From Minisyncoccia bacterium (GTDB lineage Bacteria; Patescibacteriota; Minisyncoccia; Phycocordibacterales; DATDWN01): a DNA stretch of 64,000 nt. Below, piece by piece: positions 10,069 to 36,312 of the stretch. The stretch spans positions 1,414 to 65,413 of the forward strand of contig JBAQUS010000015.1 in the NCBI GenBank assembly GCA_049297675.1. Direction: 5' to 3'. A program made the position numbers and the translations under genes. Numbering within the stretch: position 1 is the first letter of the stretch; the number at the start of each line of letters is the position of its first letter. The notes beneath the pieces are model-generated. The model had not been told where the DNA came from. It searched no databases and saw only the letters and a list, made by a program, of their open reading frames with translations.

Positions 10069-10507
10069 TCACCCTCCTTTCTAAGTTCATTATATCACTT
10101 TTTGAAACTGAAGTTTTAATGTATAGTAGACAATTATGTCAAAGCTAGCAATCGGTATGGAGAGAACACAAGACAACACGGCAATACGGCCATCCCATTT
10201 GAATTTAAGGTAAAAATCCCTTCACCTATGAAGACAGGGGTGGATTATGGTTTTAAAAAGGGTGAAAAGTGGATTTTCAGAAAAGTCTCAGAATAATAAA
10301 AGAATATGTTAGTAAGAAATATCGTCAATACCGTCAGTATCGCTCCAAAAATAGCGGTATGACGATGATGACGATATTTCTTGTACACTTTTCTAGTGTA
10401 AAGTTGTGTGTTTTTAGAATACCGTTGAAAATAATAGAAAGTTGTGGATAAAGTATTTTGAATTTTATGTGAAGATTGTTATAATATCAAAGAACTTTTA
10501 TTTTCTA

Positions 10508-14368: not shown

Positions 14369-14372
14369 ATAT

Positions 14373-20550: not shown

Positions 20551-20618
20551 ATTCTGTTTTGTAGGGGCATAGCTATTCTTTTCAATTTCAACTATTTGAT
20601 GTAGGGTTAAAACAATCT

Positions 20619-22127: not shown

Positions 22128-22416
22128 ACTTTCCCGATCACAAAGTGTTGAGAACAGTCACCAAACGCAGGGTATTCAAAGGGGTAGAAAAGAATGACGT
22201 TAAAATGGAAACCATACAGTCATATCTAGGCCTTTTGAAACATGGAAATAGCAGGAAGTTAGAGAACCAATTGTTCCTACCAATTAGATAGAAATATCGC
22301 TATGTTATTGCTGGAGTGGTATTATTGAAACACAAACGGGTGGACCTCTTACATTAGTTATTGCCTAATGTAAAAAATATTGGACCGCAAGCCAAAAATC
22401 TATTAATATATATAGT

Positions 22417-23289
22417 ATGAAAAAGCCAACTGCCAATCTACTCCTAGGTGACTGTGAAAAGATTTTATCAAAAGTAAAAGATAACAGTATTAGTCTAATC
22501 GTAACTTCACCTCCATATACCGAACGACGTTCTGATACATACGGAGGAATAAAAACAGATAAATATGTTGAGTGGTTTTTACCTAAAAGTAAGGAATTTC
22601 TTAGAGTGCTGAAACCTACAGGTACATTTATTTTAAACATTAAGGAGGCAACTGAAAATAGAGAGAAGGAATTATATGTATTGCATTTAATTCTTGAACT
22701 TAAAAAACAAGGCTGGTATTGGACAGAAGAATTTATTTGGCACAAAAAGAACTCTTTTCCTGGAAAGTGGCCTAATCGATTTCGAGATTCTTGGGAAAGA
22801 CTCCTGCAGTTCAATAAAGACCCTAATTTTAATATGTATCAAGAAGCTGTCATGGTCCCTATAGGAAAATGGGGTGACGTGAGATTAAAAAATCTTAGTG
22901 AAGCGGATAAGACTAGGACCAAGTCGAAAGTTGGAAGTGGGTTTGGAAGAATGGTGGCTAATTGGACTAATCGTGAATTAGTTTATCCGACTAACGTCCT
23001 CCATATAGCAACAGAGACAGGTAATAAAAATCACAGTGCAGTTTTTCCTCAAGCCATACCTGAATGGTTTATAAAACTTTTTACTAAGAAAGGAGATTGG
23101 GTACTAGATCCTTTTGCTGGTTCTGCTACAACGCTCAGGGTGGCCAATAAATTGGGTAGAAACTCTATTGGTATCGAAGTCCAGAAAAAATATCATAAAA
23201 TATCAAAGTCTAATTTAAAGCTTGACAGAGCCACTTTAATAACTGATACTATATCACAACCTGTCAGGAGAAAGACTCGCTTAAAATGA
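22417..23289 (+). CDS. beta-class DNA methyltransferase (N4-cytosine or N6-adenine; SPPY motif IV before motif I)
   Basis: 'LIVTSPPYTE' is motif IV. C-terminal 'VLDPFAGSATT' is motif I (the AdoMet-binding site). Confidence 0.8.
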   Translation: MKKPTANLLLGDCEKILSKVKDNSISLIVTSPPYTERRSDTYGGIKTDKYVEWFLPKSKEFLRVLKPTGTFILNIKEATENREKELYVLHLILELKKQGWYWTEEFIWHKKNSFPGKWPNRFRDSWERLLQFNKDPNFNMYQEAVMVPIGKWGDVRLKNLSEADKTRTKSKVGSGFGRMVANWTNRELVYPTNVLHIATETGNKNHSAVFPQAIPEWFIKLFTKKGDWVLDPFAGSATTLRVANKLGRNSIGIEVQKKYHKISKSNLKLDRATLITDTISQPVRRKTRLK

Positions 23290-23304
23290 TAATTATCTCA
23301 ATAT

Positions 23305-24726
23305 ATGGCTCAAATAACCAAAGATGTAGCACGTGAGATTATAGAGGATTTTGCTAGTGATATTGCTAGAGCCAAAAGTGCAGATGGTCCAAAACCTCAA
23401 AAAGAAGTAATAGATTTTAGAAATGAAAAACGGGATGGTGTTGAAAGAGTAGTGTATACCGTTCCTATTTCTCTACTTAGATTTCGTAAAGAAAATGGTA
23501 GAATCGCCTCTGACGTTTTGGCATACGAAAAAGGACACGGGGTTCTTCGTGAAGATGTGAGTGAACATCAAAAAATACTTGCAGGTTTTCTCAGAGATAA
23601 GGACCCCGATACAACGGAAATTCTTAAGAAGTCAGTTCAACAAAAAGGGCAAGAAGACCCAGCTATAATTACCGCTGATGGTTTTTTAATCAATGGTAAT
23701 CGACGTAAGCTTGTACTTGAAATGTTGTGGGAAGGATCCAGTCACGACCCTCGTTTTGAGCGTATGAAAGTAGTTATCCTGCCAGGTAAGGATGATCCTG
23801 GAGGCACTCCAACTAATAGAGAGATAGAACAAATCGAAAACCGATATCAACTCTACAAAGATGGAAAATCTGAATATTCAAATTTTGACAGAGCCCTCTC
23901 TGTTCGTAGAAAAATAGACTCTGGTATGTCTTTGGAAGAACAATTGCGGGATGATCCTGCAACTTCAGGAATAAGTGATCGTGATTTTAAAAAAGAAGTG
24001 CAACGCTATCAGGATGAGTTTCTCGGACCTCTTACTTGTGCAGATCGTTATCTGGAAGCTATAGGTCGTGAAGGAATCTACACACTCATTTCTTCTGGGA
24101 AGGGAGACAGAGAAAATAGATGGCAAGCTTTTATTGATTATTACAAGTTCTACAAACGTCTCCAAGACCCTGCGGAACGAGTAAAAGTGGGAGTTGAAGA
24201 AAAAGAGGTGGGTAAACTTGAGGCAATGGCTTTTAGCCTCATTAGATTGAGAGATTTTTCCAATCTAGGCATAAAGCTACACATGCTCATACGCAAGCTT
24301 CCCAAATATGTTGCCCATCCTTATGCCAAAAAAGAGCTTTTACAAATCAGCTCTTTAGGACACGATGTGGAAGATACTTCTAAAAAAGGTGACAGTTCTT
24401 CCCCTGAAGAACTCGATAAACGTTGGGTTAATGCAAACCAGACCGACATCAAACGCCAAGTTCATAAGGCACAAGAGATCATTGAAAGAATAGAAGTCAT
24501 GGAAACCCCTATTACACTTTTACGACAAGCTCTCGACAAGCTTACAGATGATAACATGGACCCAGCTTCGATAAAATATAATGATGTACCTGAAGCACTG
24601 AGGTTGGCTCAAGGATTAAAAGATCGAGTGGAAGAGTTGCGTAAGGAGTTCTATCAACACCAAAAAGTTGGTGAGGATTACATATCTAAGAATAATAATA
24701 AAACTCCAAAACGCAATGGAAGTTAG
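23305..24726 (+). CDS. ParB/Sulfiredoxin-fold (ParB N-terminal nuclease-like) domain protein
   Basis: 'YTVPISLLRFRKENGR' together with 'ITADGFLINGNRRKLV' matches ParB box I/II-like motifs. The C-terminal ~300 aa are unassigned. Confidence 0.55.
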   Translation: MAQITKDVAREIIEDFASDIARAKSADGPKPQKEVIDFRNEKRDGVERVVYTVPISLLRFRKENGRIASDVLAYEKGHGVLREDVSEHQKILAGFLRDKDPDTTEILKKSVQQKGQEDPAIITADGFLINGNRRKLVLEMLWEGSSHDPRFERMKVVILPGKDDPGGTPTNREIEQIENRYQLYKDGKSEYSNFDRALSVRRKIDSGMSLEEQLRDDPATSGISDRDFKKEVQRYQDEFLGPLTCADRYLEAIGREGIYTLISSGKGDRENRWQAFIDYYKFYKRLQDPAERVKVGVEEKEVGKLEAMAFSLIRLRDFSNLGIKLHMLIRKLPKYVAHPYAKKELLQISSLGHDVEDTSKKGDSSSPEELDKRWVNANQTDIKRQVHKAQEIIERIEVMETPITLLRQALDKLTDDNMDPASIKYNDVPEALRLAQGLKDRVEELRKEFYQHQKVGEDYISKNNNKTPKRNGS

Positions 24727-26593
24727 AGTAACTGATAATAGTATTTCTATTCTCTCTGCTCAAAAAACAACGACAGGGCAGATTTCTTTTTGGGGATTTA
24801 CAAAAGACAGTGAAGGAGTCTACACACTTCAGACTAACGAAGTGGCTTCAATGCTGGAAAAGGTACTTGATTTTTTTGATACAGAAAATCTAACGTATAC
24901 TCTTTCTCTTGAAGCAGAAAATATAAAAAAAGATAGAACAAAAGTCATTGTTGATTTTTCTGAAAGAAAAAAAGTACTTGAAGATTTTAAACATGGAATT
25001 TTTGATAAACAAGCGTACCAGGACTTCACTGGTTTTCTTTCCAAAAATCTAGTACGTTCACTAAAGGAACATCAAAAGAAAAGTGCTTACCATCTATATC
25101 TTGCTAGAAATGGGGCAAATTTCTCTGTTCCTGGAAGTGGAAAAACTTCTGTGGTGTTGAGTGTATTTGAAAAACTACGAGCTGAAGGAATAGTTGATAC
25201 ATTGTTTGTCATTGGACCTCCTGCTTCTTTTGGCCCATGGAGAAAGGAATTTGAAGCTACCATCGGCAGAAAACCGACCTATAGAACTCTAGCTGGAGGA
25301 GACAGACAGACTCGTTCTATCGAGTATTACCCAGATGATAAAACAAAAGCAGAACTTTATCTCACTACTTTTCAGACTGTTCTAAAAGACCAGGATGAGG
25401 TTATCCGATTCCTTTCCTCACGACACATTAATGCTTTTCTTGTAGTGGATGAGGCCCATTACATGAAGCGTTTGATTGGAAACTGGGCAAATGCTGTCAT
25501 GCGTCTTGCCTCTTCCGCATCTGTTCGTTGTGTTCTTACAGGGACACCCCTACCCAGAAGTCATACTGATATTTTTAATCTCTTTGATTTTCTGTGGCCA
25601 AATAACAAGCCTATTAGCGAGTCTCAACAACACATGATTACAGTATATGAGAAAGACCAAAAATATGACCAAATAAAACAGATACTCGACACCACAGTTG
25701 GACCACTATTCTATAGAGTCAGAAAATCAGACCTCAATTTAACCAAACCTGTTTTTCATGACCCTATTAAAATTCGCATGAATAATTATGAAAGAAAAAT
25801 ATACGATGCTATTGAAAATAAGATACGAGAAGAAAACATGCATGACGAAATACATGATTTCGAGTTGGTACTACATCTAAGGCGAGGTAGACTCATGCGT
25901 TTAAGACAAGCGTCGTCGTATATCGGATTATTAAAGAGTTCAATTGTGGGATACGAAGAAGTTTTGTATGACCCTGCTTCTGATATAGGAAAGTATATAC
26001 ATGCGTACGATGAACACGAACGTCCAGCCAAACTAGAGTATCTTCTGAATTTTTTGAAGGAATTAAAAATAAAAGGAGAAAAAATAGTCATATGGTCAAA
26101 TTTTCTTGGAACAATCGATCTCATACAAAAAACGCTCATTGCAGATGGTCTAAAAGTTAAAATAATAACTGGAGCTACTCCCGTCGAACAAATGTCTATT
26201 AGTGAGGCAGATACTAGAGAAAAGATAAGAGATGAGTTCGTTGATCCAAATAGTGGACTCGATATTTTGATAGCAAACCCTGGAGCCTGTGCGGAATCTA
26301 TTTCACTACATACCACTTGTCACCACGCACTATATTACGATTTATCTTATAACTGTGCTCAGTATCTCCAGTCGCTAGATAGAATTCATCGTGTGGGAGG
26401 GTCTGAAAAAATTCTAGCTCATTACCATTTTTTGCAGTATGATGACACAATTGACGAAGACGTTAAGTCCAGCTTGGACAGGAAAGCTAGGCAGATGTAT
26501 CAGGTCATTGATCAGGATTACGCTATTTCTTCCCTAGACATAAGTAATGAAGACGAATTAGAGGCATATGAAAGAATATTCTCTCCAAAATAG
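24713..26593 (+). CDS. SNF2-family ATPase/helicase
   Basis: Walker A 'PGSGKTS', 'LVVDEAHYMK' (DEAH box), 'VLTGTPLPRSHTDIFNLFDFL' (SNF2 motif III) and C-terminal 'QSLDRIHRVGG' (motif VI). The start overlaps the upstream stop (ATGGAAGTTAG). Confidence 0.75.
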   Translation, partial: AMEVRVTDNSISILSAQKTTTGQISFWGFTKDSEGVYTLQTNEVASMLEKVLDFFDTENLTYTLSLEAENIKKDRTKVIVDFSERKKVLEDFKHGIFDKQAYQDFTGFLSKNLVRSLKEHQKKSAYHLYLARNGANFSVPGSGKTSVVLSVFEKLRAEGIVDTLFVIGPPASFGPWRKEFEATIGRKPTYRTLAGGDRQTRSIEYYPDDKTKAELYLTTFQTVLKDQDEVIRFLSSRHINAFLVVDEAHYMKRLIGNWANAVMRLASSASVRCVLTGTPLPRSHTDIFNLFDFLWPNNKPISESQQHMITVYEKDQKYDQIKQILDTTVGPLFYRVRKSDLNLTKPVFHDPIKIRMNNYERKIYDAIENKIREENMHDEIHDFELVLHLRRGRLMRLRQASSYIGLLKSSIVGYEEVLYDPASDIGKYIHAYDEHERPAKLEYLLNFLKELKIKGEKIVIWSNFLGTIDLIQKTLIADGLKVKIITGATPVEQMSISEADTREKIRDEFVDPNSGLDILIANPGACAESISLHTTCHHALYYDLSYNCAQYLQSLDRIHRVGGSEKILAHYHFLQYDDTIDEDVKSSLDRKARQMYQVIDQDYAISSLDISNEDELEAYERIFSPK

Positions 26594-27491
26594 TGATTTT
26601 AAAAAAATATCTCTAGCCCAAATAAAAGTCTTATTTGAGGTACTAATGAACAGTCATGGTCATGATATTTCTTATGTAAAGGAGAAATACCTGAGAGGAA
26701 GTGCTTTTTTTGATGAGACTTTTCGGTTTTTGTCTGTTTTAGGCATAGTAGAAAATATAGATAAACAACTCCAACTTTCTATTCCAGCAAATATGGAAGT
26801 AGAATCAATTCTTCTAAATTCTCTTTTTAGGAAAGCTAGTAAAATATCCGCTATTGTCGATTACTTCCATAACTTTTTATTAGTGGAGGATGTGTATACT
26901 TTTAAACCACCAGTACAGAAAAATTTACAGACCAGCGGAGTTCGCAATCTCCTATTGGAATTGGATATTATTGAACACGATATAAGTACTGGAAATTATA
27001 TTGTAAGTAAAAAGGGAACACCATATTTGAAATCTTTTTTATACCGCACTTCCGTTTTGGAGTTTGAAGAAATCCTTAGAAAACGAGATAAACTAGGACT
27101 TAAGGCAGAATTAGCTGTTCTTGCATATGAGCACAAGAAACTAAGTAAATATCCTGGATTGGCAAAACAAATTGTTCATGTTTCTCGCTCTGATGTCGGA
27201 GCCGGGTATGATATTCAGAGTTTTACTTATGCCGATGGAGCGCCAACACTAAAATATATTGAAGTTAAGGCTGTTTCAGCAAATGATTTTAGTTTCTTTT
27301 GGTCAATTAACGAGATCGAGGTTGCAAAATGGTATAGGCAACAATACTACTTATATTTGGTACCAATATCAAAGGGTGGAAAAATTAACATGCAGAAGTT
27401 GAAGATAATTTCAGACCCATATGATTATATTTATAAGGATGAAAAAAATAGAGATCTTGAGTCCGTACTTTTTCATGTTTCACCAAAATAG
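26568..27491 (+). CDS. hypothetical protein with a C-terminal PD-(D/E)xK nuclease-like (DUF3883-like) domain
   Basis: 'ELAVLAYEHKK...GAGYDIQSF...YIEVKAV...FWSINEIEVA' carries D...ExK catalytic-type motifs. The start is uncertain (an alternative Met lies at 26646). Confidence 0.5.
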   Translation: MKEYSLQNSDFKKISLAQIKVLFEVLMNSHGHDISYVKEKYLRGSAFFDETFRFLSVLGIVENIDKQLQLSIPANMEVESILLNSLFRKASKISAIVDYFHNFLLVEDVYTFKPPVQKNLQTSGVRNLLLELDIIEHDISTGNYIVSKKGTPYLKSFLYRTSVLEFEEILRKRDKLGLKAELAVLAYEHKKLSKYPGLAKQIVHVSRSDVGAGYDIQSFTYADGAPTLKYIEVKAVSANDFSFFWSINEIEVAKWYRQQYYLYLVPISKGGKINMQKLKIISDPYDYIYKDEKNRDLESVLFHVSPK

Positions 27492-27494
27492 TTT

Positions 27495-28247
27495 ATGTCC
27501 GAATATCACAACGCACAAAGAACACGAGGAATGTACGACTCAAAGTCGGAGGAGCCATTCAAACTATCTCGGTCCAAAATAGATCTCTTTTTGCAGTGTC
27601 CTCGTTGTTTCTACTACGACAGAAAGTTAGGTGTAGGTCGCCCTCCAGGATTCCCATTTGCTATCAACTCAGCAGTGGACCACTTACTAAAGCAGGAATT
27701 CGATATCCACCGTGCAAATGGAACTAAACATCCACTGATTGAAAAATACAATGTTGACGCTAAACCAATCGCACACGAGGATTTGGATAAGTGGCGTCAC
27801 AACTTCACAGGTATTCAGTACCTGCACGAATTAACCAACCTACTCATAACAGGAGCAATAGACGATCTTTGGCAGAATTCAAAAGGAGAATACATAATTG
27901 TTGATTATAAAGCCACGTCAAAAGACGAAGAAATAACGGAACTAAACAAAGACTGGCAGAAGGGCTACAAGCGACAGATGGAAATTTACCAATGGCTACT
28001 ACGTCAGAACGGCTACAAAGTATCTAACACTGGCTACTTCGTATATTGCAATGGCAAAACAGATAGAGAAGTCTTTGATGCAAAAATAGAATTCGACATT
28101 ACACTTATCCCATACGAAGGAGATGATTCATGGGTAGAGAAAACTATCATCCAAGCTCATAAGTGTCTCTGTGGTGACAAGATACCTGATGCTGACTCAG
28201 AATGTGATTATTGTAGCTATGTGACAGCTCTCTCAAAATATAAATAA
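27495..28247 (+). CDS. Cas4-like / RecB-family PD-(D/E)xK nuclease with Fe-S cluster cysteines
   Basis: N-terminal 'CPRCFYY'. 'D...IIVDYKATS'. C-terminal 'CLCGD...CDYCSY' gives a Cas4-type 4-Cys arrangement. Confidence 0.6.
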   Translation: MSEYHNAQRTRGMYDSKSEEPFKLSRSKIDLFLQCPRCFYYDRKLGVGRPPGFPFAINSAVDHLLKQEFDIHRANGTKHPLIEKYNVDAKPIAHEDLDKWRHNFTGIQYLHELTNLLITGAIDDLWQNSKGEYIIVDYKATSKDEEITELNKDWQKGYKRQMEIYQWLLRQNGYKVSNTGYFVYCNGKTDREVFDAKIEFDITLIPYEGDDSWVEKTIIQAHKCLCGDKIPDADSECDYCSYVTALSKYK

Positions 28248-28351
28248 CTGGAAGAAAATTCACAAGCACAACTTGATTCTTTTCCCGAGATCTCCGAAGA
28301 GCCATTTTTGTAACTAGAAAAATCTACTGAATTCGTATAAAACTACTGCTT

Positions 28352-28903
28352 TCAGCTATTCATGGCCTTCTTGAGCTTCTCTGCTTCCTCTAGTTCCTGG
28401 ATCAGCCCTAACTGAGCATATTGTCCCAGCCAGTGCATAAATCGCTTACTGTACTGGCCTTTATAGAAGATACGATTCATGCTTTCCCGAATGGCCATAA
28501 GCTTTATAATTCGACTTTGTTTATAGAGAAATTGCCCGTGCTTGCTATGACGGTTTATCCTAGTTGAAGCATATTGAAGTCTGTGACACTTACGACAGGC
28601 AAATACTCCGTTACTGAGATATAGAGCGTTCGTCCTACTCCCACAACCACAAGTTAGGTATGAACGGGTCCCAAAAGTCAGTTCTTGCTCCGATAATTCA
28701 AAACGTTGTGATTCTAGGGCAAAAGTAACAACAAGATACGCTTTTTCGTCTTCATGTTCTATGTAGTAGTCAGCAACGGACGGTTTGTTGTTATGTACTA
28801 TATTCAAATATCCTTCCACAGATTCCTTCTTGCGGGTTTTACGGAGATCTTTTTTGAGTAAATGTGTAGTCAGTGCAAACGAATTTTCTATCAATGCTCC
28901 CAT
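28352..28903 (-). CDS. hypothetical protein with a CxC...CxxC zinc ribbon
   Basis: 183 aa. 'TCGCGS...CRKCH'. Confidence 0.45.
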   Translation of the reverse strand: MGALIENSFALTTHLLKKDLRKTRKKESVEGYLNIVHNNKPSVADYYIEHEDEKAYLVVTFALESQRFELSEQELTFGTRSYLTCGCGSRTNALYLSNGVFACRKCHRLQYASTRINRHSKHGQFLYKQSRIIKLMAIRESMNRIFYKGQYSKRFMHWLGQYAQLGLIQELEEAEKLKKAMNS

Positions 28904-28929
28904 TACTACATTTTACTATAGTACTACAA

Positions 28930-29088
28930 TTACCCTTCCGTATTTATTGTGAGAGCTTTGTACCAACAATAAAGGAAAGCTATATAAAAAATCCATTCAA
29001 TTCCATCTCCACCGCCAACTCGATCTCTAACTGCAATTCCGCCTAGAACCAATATTATACCGAGAATAAATAAGACTGTTGATGACAT
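28930..29088 (-). CDS. possible small hydrophobic membrane protein (52 aa), not in the ORF track
   Basis: Manual translation of the minus strand: MSSTVLFILGIILVLGGIAVRDRVGGGDGIEWIFYIAFLYCWYKALTINTEG. It starts 12 nt after the stop of the upstream gene. Confidence 0.3.
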   Translation of the reverse strand: MSSTVLFILGIILVLGGIAVRDRVGGGDGIEWIFYIAFLYCWYKALTINTEG

Positions 29089-29099
29089 ATTTTTTTATA

Positions 29100-29939
29100 T
29101 TAAAACCAAAACCACGATTTAATTTTTGACCATAGGCTTTTAGGTTGAACTTGGGTTATAGGAACAGAGGAGGTAGCTGCTAGATTGTCTTCTGGAGGAA
29201 CTACATTTGATATTTCAGGATCATTTTTAACAGAAAGATTTTCTTTTACCTCTACTTCTTTCTTGATTACAGGAGCCACTACTTTCACCTGCTCTTTCTG
29301 TCTTGCTTCAACCGCATTTTGCCAAGTGGTGTAACACTCCTCCTCTGACATGACTCCAAAATATGTCATTTTCGAGAACACAGGTTTATTACACGCCACG
29401 TTTCCAGACTTATTACCGTTCGGAATTTCCTGTGTTTGTACTTTCGGTACAATTGCTGGGGGAGACACACCAACTTTTTGCGGCTTCCCAATACAACTGG
29501 TCCTATCGCTATTCCATTGATAGTTGGACGGACAATCACAAGTCAAACCGCCGTTAGAGTTATTCTGCCCCGCATATTTACTGTTAGGAAAAGAAAGATT
29601 ACATGACTGATCGTAGGTGTAACAATTATCTCCCTTTTGAACATAACCACTCTGACAAGTAACTGGATGGTTAGTACGAACGTTACTAGGATAACGAGCT
29701 TCTAGTTGTTGTTGTAATAGTTGTTGTTGAAGTTTTTGCTGTTGAAGAAATATTGCTTGCAGTTGAGTTTGTCTCTGTAACTCATCAATTCTGGCACCAG
29801 GTTCTGGGACAATTTCTATCTGTAATGGATTAAGTACGGAACCTGGATAAATGGTTCCATAGGCATGAACGAAAGCAATAGGAACAAACACTATCAAAAG
29901 AAATAACACAAAGAAACTCTTTGGAGTTTTATATTTCAT
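29100..29939 (-). CDS. secreted Cys-rich, Gln-rich hypothetical protein
   Basis: Signal peptide from the internal Met (MKYKTPKSFFVLFLLIVFVPIAFVHA). A QQQKLQQQLLQQQ tract. 12+ Cys residues. Confidence 0.5.
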   Translation of the reverse strand: MKYKTPKSFFVLFLLIVFVPIAFVHAYGTIYPGSVLNPLQIEIVPEPGARIDELQRQTQLQAIFLQQQKLQQQLLQQQLEARYPSNVRTNHPVTCQSGYVQKGDNCYTYDQSCNLSFPNSKYAGQNNSNGGLTCDCPSNYQWNSDRTSCIGKPQKVGVSPPAIVPKVQTQEIPNGNKSGNVACNKPVFSKMTYFGVMSEEECYTTWQNAVEARQKEQVKVVAPVIKKEVEVKENLSVKNDPEISNVVPPEDNLAATSSVPITQVQPKSLWSKIKSWFWF

Positions 29940-30452
29940 GTTTCGCGTGGGTTTTAACCTGATAATAAGTCTCGTGTACCAAAAATGGCCACACAAGACC
30001 AGCGATAACTTCTTTCGAAATTACCCCATATCCTTTCGGATATGGACCCACGCGAGTAAGTGCGGCTTATGTGGCCGTTTTTAATCGCGTGGGATTTCTT
30101 ATGATCCATGCTAGAAACTGCTTATCAGCTTCTAGTTTAGGTATGTACAGATATAATACACCTTGAAACAGATATCGTAAATCACCGAAAAAGCCTTAGA
30201 ATTTTTAGAAATTTTTTAATCATTTCATTTTTCAAATCCAAAACTTTTCCAATACAACCCTCCAGATCTAGGAGGTTACGTTTCCTCCACAAGCCACATA
30301 TTCTGGGTCCTGTGATCCCGACCACTGCCCGGGTACTCATCCAGATACATCCAGTAACAAACATTAGCACTATATAGGTAGCAGAATAATTTAATAACTT
30401 CTGCCAAGCACGAGCTAGTCTCTCGTGTTTTTATTTTATTCACAAACTAAAC

Positions 30453-30764
30453 ATGAAACATATCAAGGAGATCGTAACTAACCCAGTCATATCGCCCTAT
30501 CGTGGCTCTGAAGCTACATATGAGATGGTACGTGAGCAACTGCGTGAGAAATATGGTGATGAGTGTGCAGATGAGTTTAACCCGCATACTGACGCAATGC
30601 CCTTCGTATCATGGGCTTCTTTCGGTTATCGAATTAAACCCCAAGAACGTGCATTCAAATCGGTAACATACGTGGAAGTCAAAAATGACAAAGGTGAGGT
30701 TGAGAGAAAAATCCGTCGTGTCGTCAATCTCTTCCACAAAAACCAAGTAACGAAAGTCAGGTGA
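30453..30764 (+). CDS. hypothetical protein (element-associated)
   Basis: 103-aa ORF. Confidence 0.4.
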   Translation: MKHIKEIVTNPVISPYRGSEATYEMVREQLREKYGDECADEFNPHTDAMPFVSWASFGYRIKPQERAFKSVTYVEVKNDKGEVERKIRRVVNLFHKNQVTKVR

Positions 30765-30789
30765 TTTATTCAACTAAATAACTAACATT

Positions 30790-31359
30790 ATGAACACAAC
30801 ATATAAACAACACATAGTCTCACCATTCCAAGTGAAGAAAAAAACTTACGATATAAGTGGCAAGGATCACCCAGTCCAAGAGGAAATCAGAAAGAACCTT
30901 GGCGAACTTCACTTAACAGCTGTGTTTGAAGAAGACACACAGACATTACAGGCATTCAGACATGTGAGTGGTGTCATAGCTTTTCTTTGTACACTGAAGA
31001 AGGATGATCAGATTATAGGATTTGGCAGAGGTGTGTCTGTCGTTACCAAGCTCAATCGGTATGTAGAGAGAACTGTTAGCTTTGCTCAAAACTCAGCTTT
31101 GATTGATTCTGTGGTAAGAGCAACCAAGATGCTTGATGCCTTGCATTTGAGCTCAAGTGGGCAACAAAACACTGTCATAACCAAAGACAATGAAGACTTC
31201 TCTCCCATAACAACTAAGCAGAAGAACTATTTGCTGAAATTACTTCAAACGACAAACATTATTAACCAGAACAGCCGTGATCAAATGGAAGACGAGATTG
31301 ACGGAATGAGCAAGGAGGAAGCGGCAGAGAAAATCAGTTTTCTCATAGAGTCGAGATAG
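30790..31359 (+). CDS. hypothetical protein (element-associated)
   Basis: 189-aa ORF. Confidence 0.4.
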   Translation: MNTTYKQHIVSPFQVKKKTYDISGKDHPVQEEIRKNLGELHLTAVFEEDTQTLQAFRHVSGVIAFLCTLKKDDQIIGFGRGVSVVTKLNRYVERTVSFAQNSALIDSVVRATKMLDALHLSSSGQQNTVITKDNEDFSPITTKQKNYLLKLLQTTNIINQNSRDQMEDEIDGMSKEEAAEKISFLIESR

Positions 31360-31382
31360 ATTACTAAAAATAATACAAAAAC

Positions 31383-31625
31383 ATGATTAACACAGTAGCA
31401 ATCGGTGAGTACGAAAGCCCAAAAGGAAACTATGGCTATCCTTTAGACTATGTGGGAGAGGAGAAAATGATAGACGAACGTCAGAGACTTATCCTAACAA
31501 ATCTCATATTTGAAAAGATACATGACGAGGGCGAGAGAGAATCTTGGCTATCTCAAGTGAGTTGTATGACGTCTGATGATGCAGAGAGTGCAATCTTTTC
31601 ATTCCTGACTTCACAGTGGCAGTAA
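31383..31625 (+). CDS. hypothetical small protein
   Basis: 80-aa ORF with a terminator downstream. Confidence 0.4.
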   Translation: MINTVAIGEYESPKGNYGYPLDYVGEEKMIDERQRLILTNLIFEKIHDEGERESWLSQVSCMTSDDAESAIFSFLTSQWQ

Positions 31626-31636
31626 TAGATACACAA

Positions 31637-31667
31637 GAAGCGTATTCCTCGGAGTACGCTTTTTTTG
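31637..31667 (+). terminator. rho-independent terminator (aagcgtattcctcggagtacgct + T7)
   Basis: Long stem followed by 7 T. Confidence 0.65.
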
Positions 31668-32113
31668 TGATATTTCTTTTCTATCCCGTAATTCAACATA
31701 ATTATCAAGAGAACTCCATTTACAATTTATATTTTTTGTTATCTGGTGGTGTAATTATCCCCAAACCACTTGTTTTAAAACTTTTTCCATGCCTATTGTA
31801 AGCTCTTTTTTACATTCTACGTTCAAGAATAAGGATTTTTTATAAATACAAATCTATGGAACTAATCAGATAGTGCTAAAAATAGGCCTAAGAATATGAG
31901 AATCAAATAATTGGTACTGGAATAAGCTAAGTACTAGGTTAGCTGATAGGTCTTTTTGATCAGATAACAAAATATGAAATAGAAAAAACAAAATTATAAG
32001 GGGGAATCTACTAGAAAAAGTCCGTTTATAGCTGTGCAAGGTCCCTATTCTAGTAGAACCTTCATAGCTCTAAGTGGATTTTTTATTTATCAAAATTAAA
32101 CACGAACACTATT

Positions 32114-34363
32114 ATGGAAAACATAAAAACGAATTTGGAATGGGCACTGTACTACCGAAGTATAGGATGGAGTCCATTTCCTGTAGTAAAAGGCGGAAAG
32201 GTACCGTCGATCGAATGGAAAAAATATCAAAATGAAATTGCGTCTGAGGAAGAAATTAACAACTGGTGGAAACAAAATCCTGAAGCAAACATAGGCATAG
32301 CAACAGGGCTGGTATCGGGTGTAATTGTTCTTGATATAGATTCAAAGCACAATAGAACGTCAAAGGAATTTCAAATTCCTCCTACCATTTGTGCTAAAAC
32401 GGGAGGACTTGGCGAACACATCCTATTTAAACACCCAGGCGGACATGTAAAAAGCACAAACGGTCAACTTTTCGGTTCCGGAGTTGATTTAAAGGCAGAC
32501 GGTGGGTATGTCGTACTCACTCCCTCATTGCACGAAAGTGGTAATCGATATGAGTGGATTATTGGACCTGATGAGACAGAACTAGCAGAGGTTCCTATAT
32601 GGCTACGCGCCGCTTTAGAGGGGCAGGATAAAAATGCAGATGCAAAACTCTGGCAAAAAGGAGCAAGCGGAGTCTCAGAAGGTAATAGGAATGAAACTGC
32701 TGCATCAGTCGCTGGTAAACTCCGCAGCTCTCTTCCTAAGGAATTAGTAGAAGACGGATGGGAAAATCTGATTGCGTGGAATAAAAAGAATCCCGAGCCA
32801 TTACCCGAAGAAGAACTTAAAAGAGTTTGGGATAGTGTCAAAAAATATGATTCAGAGGAAGAGGCACCAGCAAAAGAGTCACCCGCAACCAAATTGTTGA
32901 AACTTATTCGGGAAAGGAAGGATGTAACAATTTTTCGTGACTTTCACGGTGATGCTTTTATTGCACTTGAAATAGAAGGAGTACGTCAAGTATGGTCCTG
33001 TAAAAGTGATCAGTTCCAACATTGGCTTTCACTCTTATACTTTCATACTTACAAGACTGTCCTACCGTCAGATGCGAAAACGGGTGTAGTAGGTACTATC
33101 AAGGGTTTCGCGACGTTTGAAAAGGAGGTCATACATCTCCAGTCTAGAAACGCTTACTTTGGCGATGAGCTTTGGTACGACATGACAAATGATAAGTGGC
33201 AGGCAATCAAAGTGACTCAAGCAGGATGGGAGTTAGTGGATAAGCCACCTATACTATTTCGTCGTTATTCTCACAACAAAGCGCAAGTAATGCCTCTCGC
33301 GGGAGGTGATGCGAGGTTACTTCTAAAATACTTCAACATTTCTGACCCACAGCAACAACTTCTTATACTCATTCACATCATCTCTGCCTTTATTCCGGGG
33401 TTCGCACATCCAATATTAGTAATAAACGGTCCTCAAGGATCAGCAAAATCAACTTTTTCTCGTATTTTACGTCTCATAATTGATCCATCCATTATGGAAG
33501 TTGCTTCCATGCCAGATACTCATAGGGAGCTGGTCCAGACACTAGCGCACAACTCATTTATCTTTTTTGATAATGTTTCGTGGATTTCAGAGACCGTCTC
33601 AGATATTTTATGTAAAGCTGTAACCGGAAGTAGTTTTCCAAAAAGAGAACTCTACAGCGATGATGACGATGTTATCTACACTTTTATGAGAACTATCGGC
33701 ATTAACGGTATCAGTATGTTCCTGGCTAGACCTGATCTTTTGGAACGAAGTATTATCCTAAAACTCGATAGGATTGATTCTAAAAATAGAAAACTAGAAA
33801 AAAGTCTTATGACAGAATTTGAACATGATTTACCAAGTATACTCGGAGGCATTTTCGATGTATTGGTAAAAACACTCGCACTTAAACCTACTATAGAGCA
33901 GGAAAATCTCCCCCGCATGGCAGATTTTGCTTTGTGGGGATGTGCAGTAGCAGAAGCTTTAGGTGTAACACAGAAAGAGTTTATGGATTCGTACAATACA
34001 AATATTGCTCTCCAGACCGACATCGTAATTAACGAAAATCTTATTGCTTCTACTATCATTTCGTTCATGCAAGACCAAGAAAGGGATGAATGGGTTGGAA
34101 CTGCTACTGGTCTACTTCACAGCTTAGGAGAATTCGCGAAGAGTCATTCTGTTGATGTTCACGATAAGCAGTGGCCAAAAGCACACAATGTATTATCCCG
34201 TAGGTTAAATGAACTCAAAATCAACTTTTTGGAAGCTGGATGGGACATCTCGATTGACGGAGGTCAAGTGCGAAAAATCACTATTCGCTGGATTGGAAAG
34301 AAGCCGAATGTTCCAATTCCAAACACTTTAACAAGGTCAGAAGAAGATTTTAAAAATTTCTAA
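32114..34363 (+). CDS. bifunctional primase-polymerase (Prim-Pol N-domain) with a C-terminal P4-type primase/helicase-like P-loop domain
   Basis: 'GWSPFPVVKGGKVPSIEWKKYQ...ANIGIATGLVSGVIVLDIDS' is the Prim-Pol motif. 'VINGPQGSAKSTFSRIL' is the Walker A. Confidence 0.7.
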   Translation: MENIKTNLEWALYYRSIGWSPFPVVKGGKVPSIEWKKYQNEIASEEEINNWWKQNPEANIGIATGLVSGVIVLDIDSKHNRTSKEFQIPPTICAKTGGLGEHILFKHPGGHVKSTNGQLFGSGVDLKADGGYVVLTPSLHESGNRYEWIIGPDETELAEVPIWLRAALEGQDKNADAKLWQKGASGVSEGNRNETAASVAGKLRSSLPKELVEDGWENLIAWNKKNPEPLPEEELKRVWDSVKKYDSEEEAPAKESPATKLLKLIRERKDVTIFRDFHGDAFIALEIEGVRQVWSCKSDQFQHWLSLLYFHTYKTVLPSDAKTGVVGTIKGFATFEKEVIHLQSRNAYFGDELWYDMTNDKWQAIKVTQAGWELVDKPPILFRRYSHNKAQVMPLAGGDARLLLKYFNISDPQQQLLILIHIISAFIPGFAHPILVINGPQGSAKSTFSRILRLIIDPSIMEVASMPDTHRELVQTLAHNSFIFFDNVSWISETVSDILCKAVTGSSFPKRELYSDDDDVIYTFMRTIGINGISMFLARPDLLERSIILKLDRIDSKNRKLEKSLMTEFEHDLPSILGGIFDVLVKTLALKPTIEQENLPRMADFALWGCAVAEALGVTQKEFMDSYNTNIALQTDIVINENLIASTIISFMQDQERDEWVGTATGLLHSLGEFAKSHSVDVHDKQWPKAHNVLSRRLNELKINFLEAGWDISIDGGQVRKITIRWIGKKPNVPIPNTLTRSEEDFKNF

Positions 34364-34369
34364 AACAAT

Positions 34370-34639
34370 ATGAAAGAAGAAAATAAAAACTATATGGACG
34401 GTTCGGATAGAGGAGTGTTGCACGTCCTTTGTGTTGACACAATGGATATCAAAGCAAGGGTGACTTTTAACTCAGAGGTGGTCCAAGGAGTTTATGTGAC
34501 CTACTGGGCAGAAGATACTGAAGTTGCCGAAAAACAATTAGATAAAATCTTTAGCATTTTTTTTGAAGAAGTACTTAAAACTAGAGGTATGAATGAGAAC
34601 AGCAGGGAAAAAAGCCAAATTATTATCAATAATATATAA
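34370..34639 (+). CDS. hypothetical small protein
   Basis: 89-aa ORF tightly packed between the primase and the recombinase. Confidence 0.4.
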   Translation: MKEENKNYMDGSDRGVLHVLCVDTMDIKARVTFNSEVVQGVYVTYWAEDTEVAEKQLDKIFSIFFEEVLKTRGMNENSREKSQIIINNI

Positions 34640-34647
34640 TTAAAAAC

Positions 34648-36312
34648 ATGGAAGACAAACCACAAAAAGAAATCAAATTCATAGCGGTATACGCTCGAGT
34701 TTCAACTTCAAATCAGGAGGATCAAAAAACGATTGATGCCCAACTTTCAGAGGTAAGGGAATTTGCTGAAAAAAATAAATACATTATTGTCAAAACTTAC
34801 AAGGATGAGGGCTGGAGTGGGGATATTTTAGCTCGACCTGAGCTTGATCAGTTACGTCATGATGCACGAAGTAAAATGTGGGACGCTGTGCTTGTATATG
34901 ACCCCGATAGACTTGGTCGTCAGCTTCTTTTCCAACAAATAGTCATTGATGAATTAAAGAAACTAGAAATTGAAATTCTATTTGTAACTATGCCTCCAGT
35001 AAAAAATGCGAGTGACAAACTCTTGTTTGGTGTTCGTGGGTTATTTGCTGAATATGAAAAAGCAAAGATAACTGAACGTTTTAGAATTGGAAAAGTAAAT
35101 CGTGTGAAGAATGGTTACGTTTTAACCTCAGAAGCACCATATGGCTATACCTATGTTCTCAACAAAGGAAAACGTGGTAGTGCAGACTACATCGTTGGAC
35201 ATTACGAAATAAATGAACGTGAAGCTAAAATTATAAAACAAATATTTTCTTGGGTTGGCGATGAAGGGATGACACTCCGTGGTGTTGTCAGGAGATTACA
35301 AGGACTTGGTATTCAACCACGAAAAAGCAAAAGGGGTGTTTGGAATACAAGTACACTCAGCACACTTCTAAAACACGAGGTGTTTATCGGTACTGCATAT
35401 TGGGGAGTATCATACGCAGTCATTCCTGACAGACAATCTACTACAACTCGATATAAAAATACAGAAAAGACAAGTAGAAGGATAAGGCCAAAAAAAGAAT
35501 GGTATCCAATATCAGTTTCCGCTATTATAGAAAAAGATCTATTTGAACGTACTACACTTCGGCTACAGAAGAACTTTCAGACACTAGGCAGAAACACGGT
35601 AAATGAATATCTTTTGGCAGGTAGAATTTGGTGTGTTTGTGGTGGAAGAAGGGCTGGTGAAGGCGTACAGAAAGGTAAACATCTATATTATCGTTGTACT
35701 AATCGGGTTCACACATTTCCATTACCTCCTACATGTGCAGAAGGTAGTATTAACGCAAGGATTGCAGATGATATCGTATGGCAAAGGGTCAAGGAAACCC
35801 TGAGTTCACCAAAATTACTACGAGAACAAATTGAACGATGGCGCAAGGATGAAAATAGAAGCATCAAACAAGGAGTAACGATTGAGATCAATAGTACCAA
35901 GAGAGAAATTGCTAAATTACAAACTCAAGAAGATCGTTTCGCCAGCGCCTATTCAAAAGAGATTATTACTCTTGAAAAATTTGAAGAGTACGCAACTCCT
36001 ATTCGAACAAAAATCCGTGAACTTGAAAATCAGATATACCTAGCTGGTCTAGAAGAGACACCGAAAAATGATGTACCATTACCAAATGAAGATGAGGTTG
36101 AAGCTTTTGCTGAAGAATCCTTAAAAAAGCTCCAAAACTTGAATTTTCCGACAAAACAAGCCATTATTAGGCAGTCAATCGATAAAGTACTCGTTACTAC
36201 GAATGAATTACAAGTCTACGGTCTCATTAATCTAAATATAATCCATGTCGTCTTCCGCTCTGAGCATAGGTATTGTCGGTCTGCCGAACGTCGGGAAGTC
36301 GACGCTTTTTAA
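34648..36312 (+). CDS. large serine recombinase (integrase)
   Basis: Resolvase N-domain 'IAVYARVSTSNQ...DEGWSG...VLVYDPDRLGR', followed by the recombinase domain, a Cys-rich zinc ribbon (CVCGGRR...CTNRVH...C) and a coiled coil. The 3' end overlaps ychF by 68 nt. Confidence 0.8.
   Translation: MEDKPQKEIKFIAVYARVSTSNQEDQKTIDAQLSEVREFAEKNKYIIVKTYKDEGWSGDILARPELDQLRHDARSKMWDAVLVYDPDRLGRQLLFQQIVIDELKKLEIEILFVTMPPVKNASDKLLFGVRGLFAEYEKAKITERFRIGKVNRVKNGYVLTSEAPYGYTYVLNKGKRGSADYIVGHYEINEREAKIIKQIFSWVGDEGMTLRGVVRRLQGLGIQPRKSKRGVWNTSTLSTLLKHEVFIGTAYWGVSYAVIPDRQSTTTRYKNTEKTSRRIRPKKEWYPISVSAIIEKDLFERTTLRLQKNFQTLGRNTVNEYLLAGRIWCVCGGRRAGEGVQKGKHLYYRCTNRVHTFPLPPTCAEGSINARIADDIVWQRVKETLSSPKLLREQIERWRKDENRSIKQGVTIEINSTKREIAKLQTQEDRFASAYSKEIITLEKFEEYATPIRTKIRELENQIYLAGLEETPKNDVPLPNEDEVEAFAEESLKKLQNLNFPTKQAIIRQSIDKVLVTTNELQVYGLINLNIIHVVFRSEHRYCRSAERREVDAF

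What the first reader, a model, noticed from the sequence alone, without database searches (positions are those of the whole stretch)
22417..28247. Five-gene methyltransferase / ParB-fold / SNF2 ATPase / two PD-(D/E)xK nuclease cluster: candidate novel defense system or mobile-element anti-restriction and replication module
Five co-oriented, tightly packed genes, with overlapping stops and starts among the last four. They encode: (1) a beta-class DNA methyltransferase with SPPY (motif IV) preceding DPFAGSATT (motif I); (2) a 473-aa protein with a ParB/Srx-like N-domain (ISLLRFRKENGR / DGFLINGNRR) and ~300 unassigned residues; (3) a compact SNF2-family ATPase (GSGKT, DEAH, TGTPL..N.F.FL, QSLDRIHRVGG); (4) a 307-aa protein whose C-terminus carries D...ExK nuclease-type motifs (GYDI / IEVK, DUF3883-like); (5) a Cas4-like nuclease with 4 Cys (CPRCFYY; IVDYK; CLCGD..CDYCSY). 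A methyltransferase combined with an SNF2 helicase and nucleases recalls DISARM or type ISP/III restriction-modification logic, and ParB-like domains recur in Dnd/Ssp/Dpd/BREX-associated systems. This exact five-gene architecture does not match any named system I know. The alternative reading is that it is the replication or anti-restriction module of the adjacent integrative element: phages often carry ParB-nuclease + methyltransferase + SNF2 helicase + Cas4-like exonuclease + primase.
Basis: partly seen in the sequence, partly recalled or inferred. Interest (0 to 1): 0.8.

Follow-up and report, generated by a model that had tools for sequence, protein, structure and literature searches.

The report
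Unnamed methylase–ParB–SNF2–nuclease defence cassette
Four of the five genes form a compact cassette (DNA methylase, ParB-fold protein, SNF2 motor, nuclease) that recurs in over 20 bacterial phyla with swappable methylases and effectors; it looks like an undescribed restriction-type immune system, while the fifth gene is only a neighbour.

Summary
All five genes are real and the claimed motifs are present.

**The unit is four genes, not five.** The ParB-fold protein (g2), SNF2 ATPase (g3) and winged-helix + DUF3883/NOV_C nuclease (g4) keep one order in essentially all 80 related loci examined, from more than 20 phyla. A DNA methyltransferase is always adjacent.

**The methylase and effector are interchangeable.**
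- Methylase: D12 (DPPY), beta-class with TSPPY (as here), or C5.
- Effector: NOV_C nuclease, a PNP_UDP_1 phosphorylase gene in its place, or a Cap5-type HNH domain fused to g2.
- No other neighbour is conserved.

**The Cas4-like gene g5 is not a component.** It belongs to a very large family found across Patescibacteria. None of 91 other g5 loci carries close g2/g3 relatives.

**Context.** Here, and in a related Parcubacteria genome, the cassette is cargo of a PrimPol + serine-recombinase integrative element. It is absent from that context elsewhere.

**Best reading (confidence about 0.7):** an unnamed methylation-linked restriction or abortive-infection system. The closest described relatives are Hma/type-1 BR (SNF2–NOV_C fusion + methylase + DUF499) and DISARM in logic, but it fails their membership tests.

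No paper or PADLOC model covers g2. A true relative sits in Streptococcus phage Javan191, which gives a culturable test case. Everything here is computational.

The parts
22417..23289 (+). g1: beta-class (motif IV before motif I) DNA methyltransferase with TSPPY. Probable N4-cytosine methylase and the self-marking component.
   Evidence: N6_N4_Mtase E 1e-42. Best solved relative is M.PvuII, an N4-cytosine methylase, at 7e-25. All 26 g1-type methylases next to the triad carry TSPPY. 81-83% identical in the related CPR cassettes L183 and L182.
23305..24726 (+). g2: 473-aa ParB/Srx (ParB-CTPase fold) protein with a helical middle and a coiled-coil C-terminus. It is the signature core component, proposed here as an NTP-gated DNA sensor or clamp.
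24716..26593 (+). g3: compact SNF2-family ATPase (625 aa counted from ATG 24716; the mechanical ORF starts at TTG 24668). Proposed dsDNA translocase.
   Evidence: SNF2-rel_dom 9e-19, Helicase_C 1e-7. PADLOC ZorD 1e-29, DpdE 2e-22, DrmD 1e-12, HmaA 1.5e-5. ISWI-type remodellers are the best PDB hits. Walker A, DEAH and motif VI invariant in 66 sequences. Always directly downstream of g2.
26568..27491 (+). g4: two winged-helix units plus an Hjc-like PD-(D/E)xK nuclease (NOV_C/DUF3883). This is the effector in this variant.
27495..28247 (+). g5: Cas4-like four-cysteine PD-(D/E)xK nuclease. Adjacent and probably co-transcribed, but NOT a component of the conserved system.
   Evidence: PDDEXK_1 7e-15. 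More than 8000 homologues at about 80% identity across Patescibacteria. None of 91 other g5 loci has close g2/g3 relatives. Absent after g4 in L183-L185. Its upstream neighbours are highly variable.
28352..36312 (.). Remainder of the probable integrative element that carries the cassette. It holds two unannotatable minus-strand ORFs (28352-28903, 29100-29996), small ORFs, PrimPol (32114-34363) and a large serine recombinase (34648-36312) that abuts host ychF.
   Evidence: Prim-Pol 1.5e-32; Resolvase/Recombinase/Zn_ribbon_recom. The same layout (system, small ORFs, PrimPol, serine recombinases) occurs in Parcubacteria GW2011 locus L183. There the backbone is only 29-36% identical while the system is 52-81% identical. 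No flanking direct repeats and no empty site were found, so the borders are inferred.

Best explanation
g1-g4 form a self-contained, horizontally mobile, methylation-linked defence cassette. It is an R-M-like system whose conserved core is a ParB-CTPase-fold protein plus an SNF2 ATPase.

Proposed mechanism. Only component identities and conservation are shown; every step below is inferred.
1. The methylase marks host DNA. In this variant the mark is probably m4C.
2. g2 has ParB-like architecture: an NTP-binding N-domain, a helical DNA-binding middle and a coiled-coil C-terminus. It loads on or senses DNA that lacks the mark, acting as an NTP-gated switch or clamp.
3. g2 then engages the SNF2 motor g3, which translocates on double-stranded DNA.
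4. g3 delivers or activates the effector. Here that is g4, whose winged-helix domains bind DNA and whose Hjc-like nuclease nicks or cleaves it.

In sister variants the effector is instead a PNP-family nucleosidase or phosphorylase, which would probably give abortive infection through nucleotide depletion, or a Cap5-type HNH nuclease fused to g2.

In this genome the cassette is cargo of a PrimPol/serine-recombinase integrative element. g5 is a neighbour, not a part.
For: **Conserved order.** g2>g3>g4 appear in the same order, abutting or overlapping, in virtually all 80 loci drawn from 148 tblastn-confirmed species genomes spanning more than 20 phyla.

**A methylase is always adjacent, but of unrelated families.**
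- D12/DPPY in about 45 loci.
- TSPPY beta-class in about 26 loci.
- A C5 methylase in the divergent branches L177 and Javan191.
- There are at least 4 switches within one clade. Cores whose SNF2 proteins are 81% identical pair with different methylase classes.

**The effector is exchangeable.**
- NOV_C is replaced by PNP_UDP_1 in a monophyletic group of 5 Bacteroidota loci.
- In L178/L179 it is replaced by an N-terminal HNH domain on g2. A profile of that domain hits PDB HNH entry 9om4 at 1.8e-15 and Cap5 at 1e-8.

**Catalytic residues are invariant** in g2, g3 and g4.

**No further conserved partner.** 129 flanking ORFs hit 156 Pfam families. These include AbiEii x4, Fic, RhuM and HNH alongside housekeeping genes.

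**Carried by diverse mobile elements:** a conjugative element, a prophage end, a plasmid and serine-recombinase elements.

**Experimental precedent.** An SNF2+NOV_C protein (HmaA) was shown to defend against T4 through NOV_C nickase activity (PMC11232893).
Against: - No experiment exists; defence is inferred from architecture and context only.
- It is unclear how one conserved triad could read m6A, m4C and m5C marks. The methylase may instead supply target recognition, or it may serve another purpose.
- Enrichment next to known defence genes was not tested against a background, and many neighbours are housekeeping genes.
- ParB, methylase and SNF2 domains also co-occur in anti-restriction 'polyvalent' proteins of phages and plasmids (PMC5512222).
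- Nearly all loci are MAGs, and ORFs were called with a simple script.
- NTP binding and clamp behaviour of g2 are inferred from fold and motifs only.
Confidence: 0.7

Rival explanations
1. The cassette is an establishment or anti-restriction module of mobile elements. On this view the methylase plus SNF2, like DarB of phage P1, together with a ParB-like nuclease, protect or prime the element's own incoming DNA rather than defend the host.
For: ParB, adenine-methylase and SNF2 domains are recurrent partners in polyvalent proteins of phages and conjugative elements (PMC5512222). The cassette sits on mobile elements in several loci. In the window it lies beside PrimPol and a serine recombinase.
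Against: - The genes are separate and chromosomal in most loci, many of them flanked by housekeeping genes.
- The close g2 family has 0 hits in 2.9 million IMG/VR contigs and no orthologue in 50,697 phage or 72,556 plasmid records.
- An intact nuclease that can be swapped for a PNP or a Cap5-type HNH effector has no role in anti-restriction.
- PrimPol is absent from the 80 census loci. It was found only in the window and in the separately fetched Parcubacteria GW2011 locus.
Confidence: 0.12
2. It is a selfish addiction module that behaves like a restriction-modification system. Its main effect would be post-segregational killing that stabilises the carrier element, with little antiviral benefit.
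For: The methylase-plus-nuclease logic fits, as does frequent carriage on integrative and conjugative elements. The distribution is patchy and rare, 148 of 185,579 species genomes.
Against: This reading is not mutually exclusive with defence. Classical R-M systems do both. The elaborate ParB + SNF2 machinery and the abortive-type PNP effector are more typical of invader sensing.
Confidence: 0.1
3. It is a five-gene system in which the Cas4-like g5 is a functional component, for example processing DNA ends made by g4.
For: g5 starts 3 nt after the g4 stop. A distant paralogous cluster, L084, has the order C5 methylase, ParB-like protein, SNF2, a 407-aa protein, then a 60%-identical g5 homologue. 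g5 homologues often end co-directional restriction-type operons.
Against: - g5 is missing from the 80 other system loci, including close CPR relatives.
- None of 91 other g5 loci has close g2/g3 relatives.
- Upstream partners of g5 include SDR, cyclophilin, Lnt, MazG and GyrB genes.
Confidence: 0.06

Closest known systems
Hma system (HmaABC), also called 'type-1 BREX-related (BR)' systems
   Same: An SNF2 ATPase works with a NOV_C/DUF3883 Hjc-like nuclease alongside a DNA methylase and an extra NTPase. The HmaA NOV_C nickase was shown to be required for anti-T4 defence (PMC11232893; PMC12839542).
   Different: - In Hma the SNF2 and NOV_C parts are one polypeptide of about 1180 aa. Here they are two genes, and g4 adds two winged-helix domains.
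- The methylase is DUF1156-type in Hma, but a small D12, beta-class or C5 enzyme here.
- The third component is a DUF499 AAA+ ATPase in Hma and a ParB-CTPase-fold protein here.
- The PADLOC HmaA model matches g3 only at 1.5e-5, over the Helicase_C region.
DISARM (classes 1 and 2)
   Same: The logic is shared: a conserved helicase/nuclease core is combined with interchangeable methylases of different base specificity. Class 1 includes an SNF2 protein (DrmD).
   Different: There are no equivalents of DrmA, DrmB (DUF1998) or DrmC (PLD). g3 hits DrmD models only weakly, 1e-12, in the C-terminal lobe. DISARM has no ParB-fold protein.
GmrSD / SspE / BrxU-type enzymes (ParB-like DUF262 NTPase + HNH/DUF1524)
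   Same: A ParB-superfamily NTPase is coupled to a nuclease that senses DNA modification status. The HNH-g2 fusion variant (L178) mirrors the ParB+HNH architecture.
   Different: Those are single-protein type IV or PT-sensing enzymes that attack modified DNA and carry no cognate methylase or SNF2 partner. g2 does not match the DUF262/GmrSD_N models.
Type III / type ISP restriction-modification
   Same: A methylase is combined with an SF2 ATPase and a PD-(D/E)xK nuclease, and the ATP-driven motor couples site recognition to cleavage.
   Different: In Res and ISP enzymes the motor and nuclease are fused and bind the Mod/TRD subunit. Here they are separate proteins, an obligatory ParB-fold protein is added, the methylases are small stand-alone type-II-like enzymes, and a non-nuclease (PNP) effector can substitute.
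Dpd (7-deazaguanine) system
   Same: It contains both a ParB-like protein (DpdB) and an SNF2-like helicase (DpdE). DpdE models hit g3 at 2e-22.
   Different: There are no DpdA/TGT or DpdC modification genes. The modification here comes from ordinary methylases, and in Dpd the ParB-like DpdB belongs to the modification module.

Membership tests
Hma / type-1 BR | SNF2 helicase fused to a C-terminal NOV_C nuclease (HmaA) | tested here: not met
   SNF2 (g3) and NOV_C (g4) are separate genes in all loci. The HmaA model hits g3 only at 1.5e-5.
Hma / type-1 BR | DUF499 ATPase (HmaC) and DUF1156 methylase (HmaB) | tested here: not met
   Neither domain appears in g1-g5 or among flanking genes. The methylase is N6_N4, D12 or C5.
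DISARM | DrmA helicase, DrmB (DUF1998) and DrmC (PLD) core | tested here: not met
   PADLOC and NCBIfam give only weak DrmD/DrmA hits to the Helicase_C region of g3. No DUF1998 or PLD protein is present.
Zorya | ZorA/ZorB membrane motor together with ZorD | tested here: not met
   ZorD is the best PADLOC hit for g3 (1e-29), but there are no ZorA/B/C homologues in the window region.
Dpd | DpdA (TGT) and DpdC with DpdB | tested here: not met
   No TGT-family gene is present, and g2 has no DpdB hit in PADLOC.
Type III / ISP R-M | Res subunit with motor and nuclease in one chain, assembled on Mod | tested here: not met
   The ResIII Pfam hit covers only the ATPase core of g3 (2.7e-9), and the nuclease is a separate gene. 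Complex formation with the methylase cannot be tested here.
GmrSD-type type IV enzymes | DUF262 (GmrSD_N) + DUF1524 in one protein, with no methylase | tested here: not met
   g2 has no GmrSD_N hit, and a methylase is always linked.
ParABS partition / canonical ParB | ParB-CTPase N-domain with boxes I-III | tested here: met
ParABS partition / canonical ParB | Adjacent ParA ATPase and a partition context | tested here: not met
   No ParA-type gene was listed among the commonest Pfam families hit by the 129 flanking ORFs or found in the window.
Phage/MGE replication module (SNF2 helicase + PrimPol + Cas4/VRR-NUC exonuclease) | Consistent co-occurrence with primase/replication genes inside phages | tested here: not met
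   A PrimPol homologue was found only in the window and in L183. There is none in the 80 census loci. The close g2 family is absent from IMG/VR.
Polyvalent / DarB-like anti-restriction proteins | Methylase-SNF2 (and ParB) fused in one giant virion- or T4SS-delivered protein | tested here: not met
   The genes are separate and of ordinary size, and no fusion was seen in 80 loci. Delivery cannot be tested.
Generic R-M-like defence system | Obligatory linkage of a DNA methylase with a nuclease or toxic effector, with horizontal mobility | tested here: met
   A methylase is present in essentially every complete locus. Effectors are NOV_C, PNP or HNH. The distribution across phyla is patchy.
Generic R-M-like defence system | Demonstrated restriction of phage or plasmid and protection by methylation | not testable with these tools
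   This requires plaque and transformation assays and methylome sequencing.

The most novel reading that the evidence does not exclude
A previously unrecognised class of immune system in which a ParB-CTPase-fold protein acts as an NTP-gated clamp or switch. It would read the absence of any of three kinds of DNA methylation and license an SNF2 translocase to fire interchangeable effectors: a DNA nuclease, an HNH nuclease, or a nucleotide-degrading PNP enzyme. That would repurpose the chromosome-segregation ParB switch for telling self DNA from foreign DNA.
Probability: 0.3. Interest if true: 0.85.

Novelty: new variant of a known kind. Interest (0 to 1): 0.7.

Why it matters
If confirmed, this adds a widely dispersed but overlooked system to the prokaryotic immune repertoire. 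It is carried almost entirely by uncultured lineages, including CPR/Patescibacteria and one DPANN archaeon.

It would give the ParB-CTPase fold a new job as the core of an immune sensor working with a chromatin-remodeller-type SNF2 motor.

The natural swaps make the family a ready-made comparative experiment on two questions. One is how helicase-based systems couple epigenetic self-marking to effector firing. The other is how direct restriction converts into abortive infection. The swaps in question are m6A/m4C/m5C methylases and nuclease/HNH/PNP effectors.

The Streptococcus equi prophage Javan191 copy and the Lactiplantibacillus plasmid relative offer tractable entry points.

Tried and rejected
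- **Promoter/terminator scan of 22000-30500.** Counts did not exceed shuffles, so it says nothing about operon structure.
- **Direct repeats flanking the element.** Only short chance matches were found and no att site was identified. This is expected for serine recombinases.
- **Empty-site search through exact YchF look-up.** Only contigs carrying the same element were returned.
- **PADLOC, NCBIfam and Pfam on g2.** No hits; only a weak PHROG ParB match at 2e-3. The fold had to be established by structure prediction.
- **PDB sequence searches.** The g2 profile and g4 returned nothing.
- **The third gene of the L. plantarum plasmid cluster (247 aa) and the 407-aa protein of L084.** Neither matches the g4 profile. 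Their nuclease nature is unproven, and the 'D...EIK' seen by eye in L084 is only a lead.
- **g5 as a housekeeping hotspot anchor versus a mobile accessory gene.** The evidence does not decide between them.
- **Literature.** Seven full-text searches and eight papers were inspected, and none describes ParB-fold + SNF2 + NOV_C + methylase. [quoted passage not shown] L009 has a weak HEPN_MAE_28990 gene upstream. This could not be verified.

Full report
**1. Observation**

The window carries five co-oriented + strand ORFs at 22417-28247. Profile searches confirm four of them directly.
- g1 is an N6_N4_Mtase (E 1e-42).
- g3 has SNF2-rel_dom (9e-19) and Helicase_C.
- g4 has a C-terminal NOV_C/DUF3883 domain (2e-14).
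- g5 is a PDDEXK_1 protein (7e-15). Cas4 models score below their cut-offs.

g2 has no Pfam, NCBIfam or PADLOC hit. Its ParB/Srx N-domain is nevertheless real.
- tblastn links residues 50-204 to plasmid genes annotated ParB/RepB/Spo0J (2e-16).
- The equivalents of ParB boxes I-III (GQxxPAII, NGNRR, IENRYQ) are invariant in the family.

There are three corrections.
- g3 probably starts at ATG 24716, because residues before it are unconserved.
- g4 and g5 are separated by 3 nt rather than overlapping.
- The TSPPY motif of g1, with M.PvuII as its best solved relative (7e-25), points to N4-cytosine methylation. The SPPY-equals-m4C rule is established knowledge and was not tested here.

**2. What recurs elsewhere**

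g2 has more than 1383 homologues at about 50% identity over its full length in unrelated phyla. A profile search of 1.84 billion cluster representatives finds 1619/734/128 at E 1e-3/1e-10/1e-30.

A scan of one genome per species found 148 confirmed relatives among 185,579 genomes. The best 80 come from:
- Patescibacteria, Nitrospirota, Omnitrophota, Bacteroidota and Ignavibacteriota;
- Planctomycetota, Chloroflexota, Desulfobacterota and several proteobacterial classes;
- Acidobacteriota, Gemmatimonadota, Verrucomicrobiota, Thermotogae and Actinomycetota;
- one Pacearchaeota archaeon.

All of these are MAGs.

Mapping the window proteins onto those loci shows g2>g3>g4 in the same order, abutting or overlapping, virtually everywhere the contig allows. 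A DNA methylase is always attached, but its family and position vary.

| Architecture | Loci |
|---|---|
| g2>g3>g4>D12 methylase (PF02086, DPPY) | 35 |
| g2>g3>g4>g1-type methylase (TSPPY) | 21 |
| Methylase upstream of g2, as in the window (mostly Patescibacteria) | a handful |

A distant branch uses a C5 methylase in the window's gene order (L177).

A neighbour-joining tree of g2+g3 shows two D12-only clades. A third clade is mixed, with at least four switches between methylase classes. L025 (D12) and L026 (TSPPY) have SNF2 proteins that are 81% identical.

**3. The effector is also exchangeable**

- Five Bacteroidota loci form one clade that lacks NOV_C. They carry a PNP_UDP_1 phosphorylase gene directly upstream of g2 (E 1e-23 to 1e-27).
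- In L178/L179 there is neither NOV_C nor PNP. There g2 carries an N-terminal extension of about 170 aa with invariant CxxxxC…CH…N…CxxxH. A profile of this extension hits a PDB HNH endonuclease (9om4, 1.8e-15) and the HNH domain of CBASS Cap5 (1e-8).
- In the NOV_C version, D215 and E232-x-K234 are invariant.
- The g4 model (pLDDT 87.8) consists of two winged-helix units followed by an Hjc-like nuclease core.

A census of the 129 nearest flanking ORFs gave 156 different Pfam families and no further conserved partner. The neighbours mix defence, toxin-antitoxin and mobile-element genes (AbiEii x4, Fic, RhuM, HNH, DUF2924) with housekeeping genes.

The unit is therefore a portable four-function cassette: methylase + ParB-fold protein + SNF2 + effector.

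**4. g5 is not part of it**

- Across the other 80 system loci, g5 gave one hit, 3.5 kb away in L015.
- In L183-L185 (g2 70% identical) NOV_C is followed by other small ORFs. In L182 (g2 85% identical) the contig ends right after g4, so that locus is uninformative.
- g5 belongs to a very large family: more than 8000 hits at about 80% identity across Patescibacterial classes.
- Of 91 further g5 loci, none has close g2/g3 relatives.
- Its neighbours fall into 295 clusters out of 377 ORFs.
- The upstream gene is co-directional in 66 of 78 cases, and within 30 bp in about half of those.
- That upstream gene ranges from restriction and defence genes (ResIII, RVT_1, GmrSD_N, HerA, AAA_21, MmeI-like) to SDR, cyclophilin, Lnt, MazG and GyrB.

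There is one intriguing exception, the IMG/VR contig L084. A 60%-identical g5 homologue follows a distant paralogous cluster made of a C5 methylase, a ParB-like protein (DGKLLDGNRR; hhalign E 4e-5), an SNF2 protein (25% identical to g3) and a 407-aa protein. I treat this as a lead. g5 may be a promiscuous accessory of restriction cassettes in CPR. It is not evidence of membership.

**5. Genomic context here**

The host is a Minisyncoccia (CPR) bacterium.

Downstream of g5 lie two unannotatable minus-strand ORFs, several small ORFs, a PrimPol and a large serine recombinase that abuts ychF.

A Parcubacteria GW2011 contig has the same layout next to rpsT, without g5: system, small ORFs, PrimPol-AAA_25, serine recombinases. 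There the system proteins are 52-81% identical to the window's, while PrimPol and the recombinase are only 36% and 29% identical. The cassette is therefore exchangeable cargo of such elements rather than their backbone.

Elsewhere the cassette sits in other settings:
- on a conjugative element with TrwC/T4CP;
- at the end of Streptococcus equi prophage Javan191;
- in plain chromosomal contexts.

In Javan191 the ParB-like and NOV_C proteins are true relatives (hhalign 3.6e-19 and 5.5e-28). A C5 methylase lies next to them.

A looser relative is on a conjugative L. plantarum plasmid: dcm, ParB-like, SNF2, an unknown 247-aa protein, and vsr.

The close g2 family has no hit in 2.9 million IMG/VR contigs and no orthologue in the phage or plasmid collections.

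**6. Interpretation**

Four features together are the signature of a restriction-modification-like immune system:
- obligatory linkage to a methylase;
- intact catalytic residues in all components;
- modular exchange of both methylase and toxic effector;
- patchy horizontal distribution on mobile elements.

None of them fits a replication or partition module.

My working model has four steps.
1. The methylase marks self DNA.
2. The ParB-fold protein acts as an NTP-gated DNA sensor or clamp on unmarked DNA. It has ParB-like architecture: an NTPase domain, a helical middle that aligns with the HTH region of Spo0J/KorB, and a coiled-coil tail.
3. The SNF2 motor translocates.
4. The effector (winged-helix + Hjc-like nuclease, HNH, or PNP) executes.

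Only the identities and conservation of the parts are shown. Every step of the model is inferred.

The main puzzle is how such similar cores cope with m6A, m4C and m5C marks. Either the methylase itself supplies recognition, as in type I/III systems and BREX, or g2/g4 co-evolve with it. g4 is the fastest-evolving part. In the L025/L026 pair g2 diverges more than g3. Neither observation is conclusive.

**7. Comparison with known systems**

The closest described system is Hma, also called type-1 BR. It comprises an SNF2-NOV_C fusion, a DUF1156 methylase and a DUF499 ATPase. The NOV_C nickase of HmaA was shown to be needed against T4 (PMC11232893; PMC12839542).

The present cassette splits the SNF2 and nuclease parts, uses small methylases, and replaces DUF499 with a ParB-fold protein. 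The HmaA, DrmD, ZorD and DpdE models hit only the generic SNF2 core of g3.

It shares DISARM's logic of a fixed core with interchangeable methylases. The HNH-fusion variant shares the ParB+HNH theme of GmrSD. It fails the defining features of each family; see the membership table.

Searches of the paper library found no description of this combination. Surveys of ParB-CTPase fusions (10.1101/2025.10.10.680097) and of polyvalent proteins (PMC5512222) do not cover it.

**8. Verdict**

- Novelty: a new variant of the known kind 'methylation-linked helicase-nuclease defence systems', distinguished by an obligatory ParB-fold core.
- Confidence that it is a defence/restriction cassette is about 0.7. 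Confidence in the specific clamp-translocase mechanism is about 0.3.
- Interest is 0.7.

Noticed in passing
window 27495-28247; loci L085-L176: The Cas4-like g5 family is found across Patescibacteria at about 80% identity. It is typically the last gene of a co-directional run whose upstream genes vary widely, from type III and MmeI-like R-M, RT, GmrSD, HerA and SLATT to housekeeping genes. It could be a hotspot anchor or a promiscuous accessory of restriction cassettes; the evidence does not decide.
   Followed up: partly
L084 1813-9423 (IMG/VR UViG_3300028800_002444): A distant paralogous cluster: C5 methylase, a 275-aa protein, a ParB-like 373-aa protein (DGNRR), SNF2 (565 aa), a 407-aa protein, a Cas4-like protein (60% identical to g5), and then a SET-domain protein. 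This is a second, unexplored branch of ParB+SNF2+methylase systems.
   Followed up: partly
window 30453-36312 and L183 14404-19019: An integrative element backbone of small ORFs, PrimPol and large serine recombinase(s). In the window the recombinase ORF overlaps the start of host ychF. A distantly related backbone (29-36% identity) in Parcubacteria GW2011 carries the same cassette next to rpsT.
   Followed up: partly
window 10442-22127: Three large genes lie upstream: a 1308-aa protein with a transglutaminase core and an SLT domain, an 1809-aa protein with Rha78A-like Ig domains, and a 502-aa DKNYY-repeat protein. They may be CPR surface or host-interaction proteins.
   Followed up: no
L180 (Streptococcus phage Javan191, MK448700 1-6607) and L181 (L. 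plantarum plasmid CP096858): Relatives of the system exist in cultured hosts. Javan191 genes 0002-0004 are ParB-like, SNF2 and NOV_C, with a C5 methylase on the opposite strand. The plasmid version pairs dcm and vsr with a ParB-like protein, an 862-aa SNF2 protein and an unrelated 247-aa protein.
   Followed up: partly
L009 8579-9961: The gene directly upstream of g2 in this Nitrospirae locus has a weak HEPN_MAE_28990 match (E 0.007). A 2013 survey (PMC3710099) noted that this HEPN family occurs in operons with a ParB nuclease and a DNA methylase, so it may be an optional extra effector.
   Followed up: no
window 28352-28903 and 29100-29996 (minus strand): Two ORFs of 183 and 298 aa lie between g5 and the PrimPol module. 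Neither has a Pfam or PHROG hit, and neither has a homologue in any system locus.
   Followed up: no
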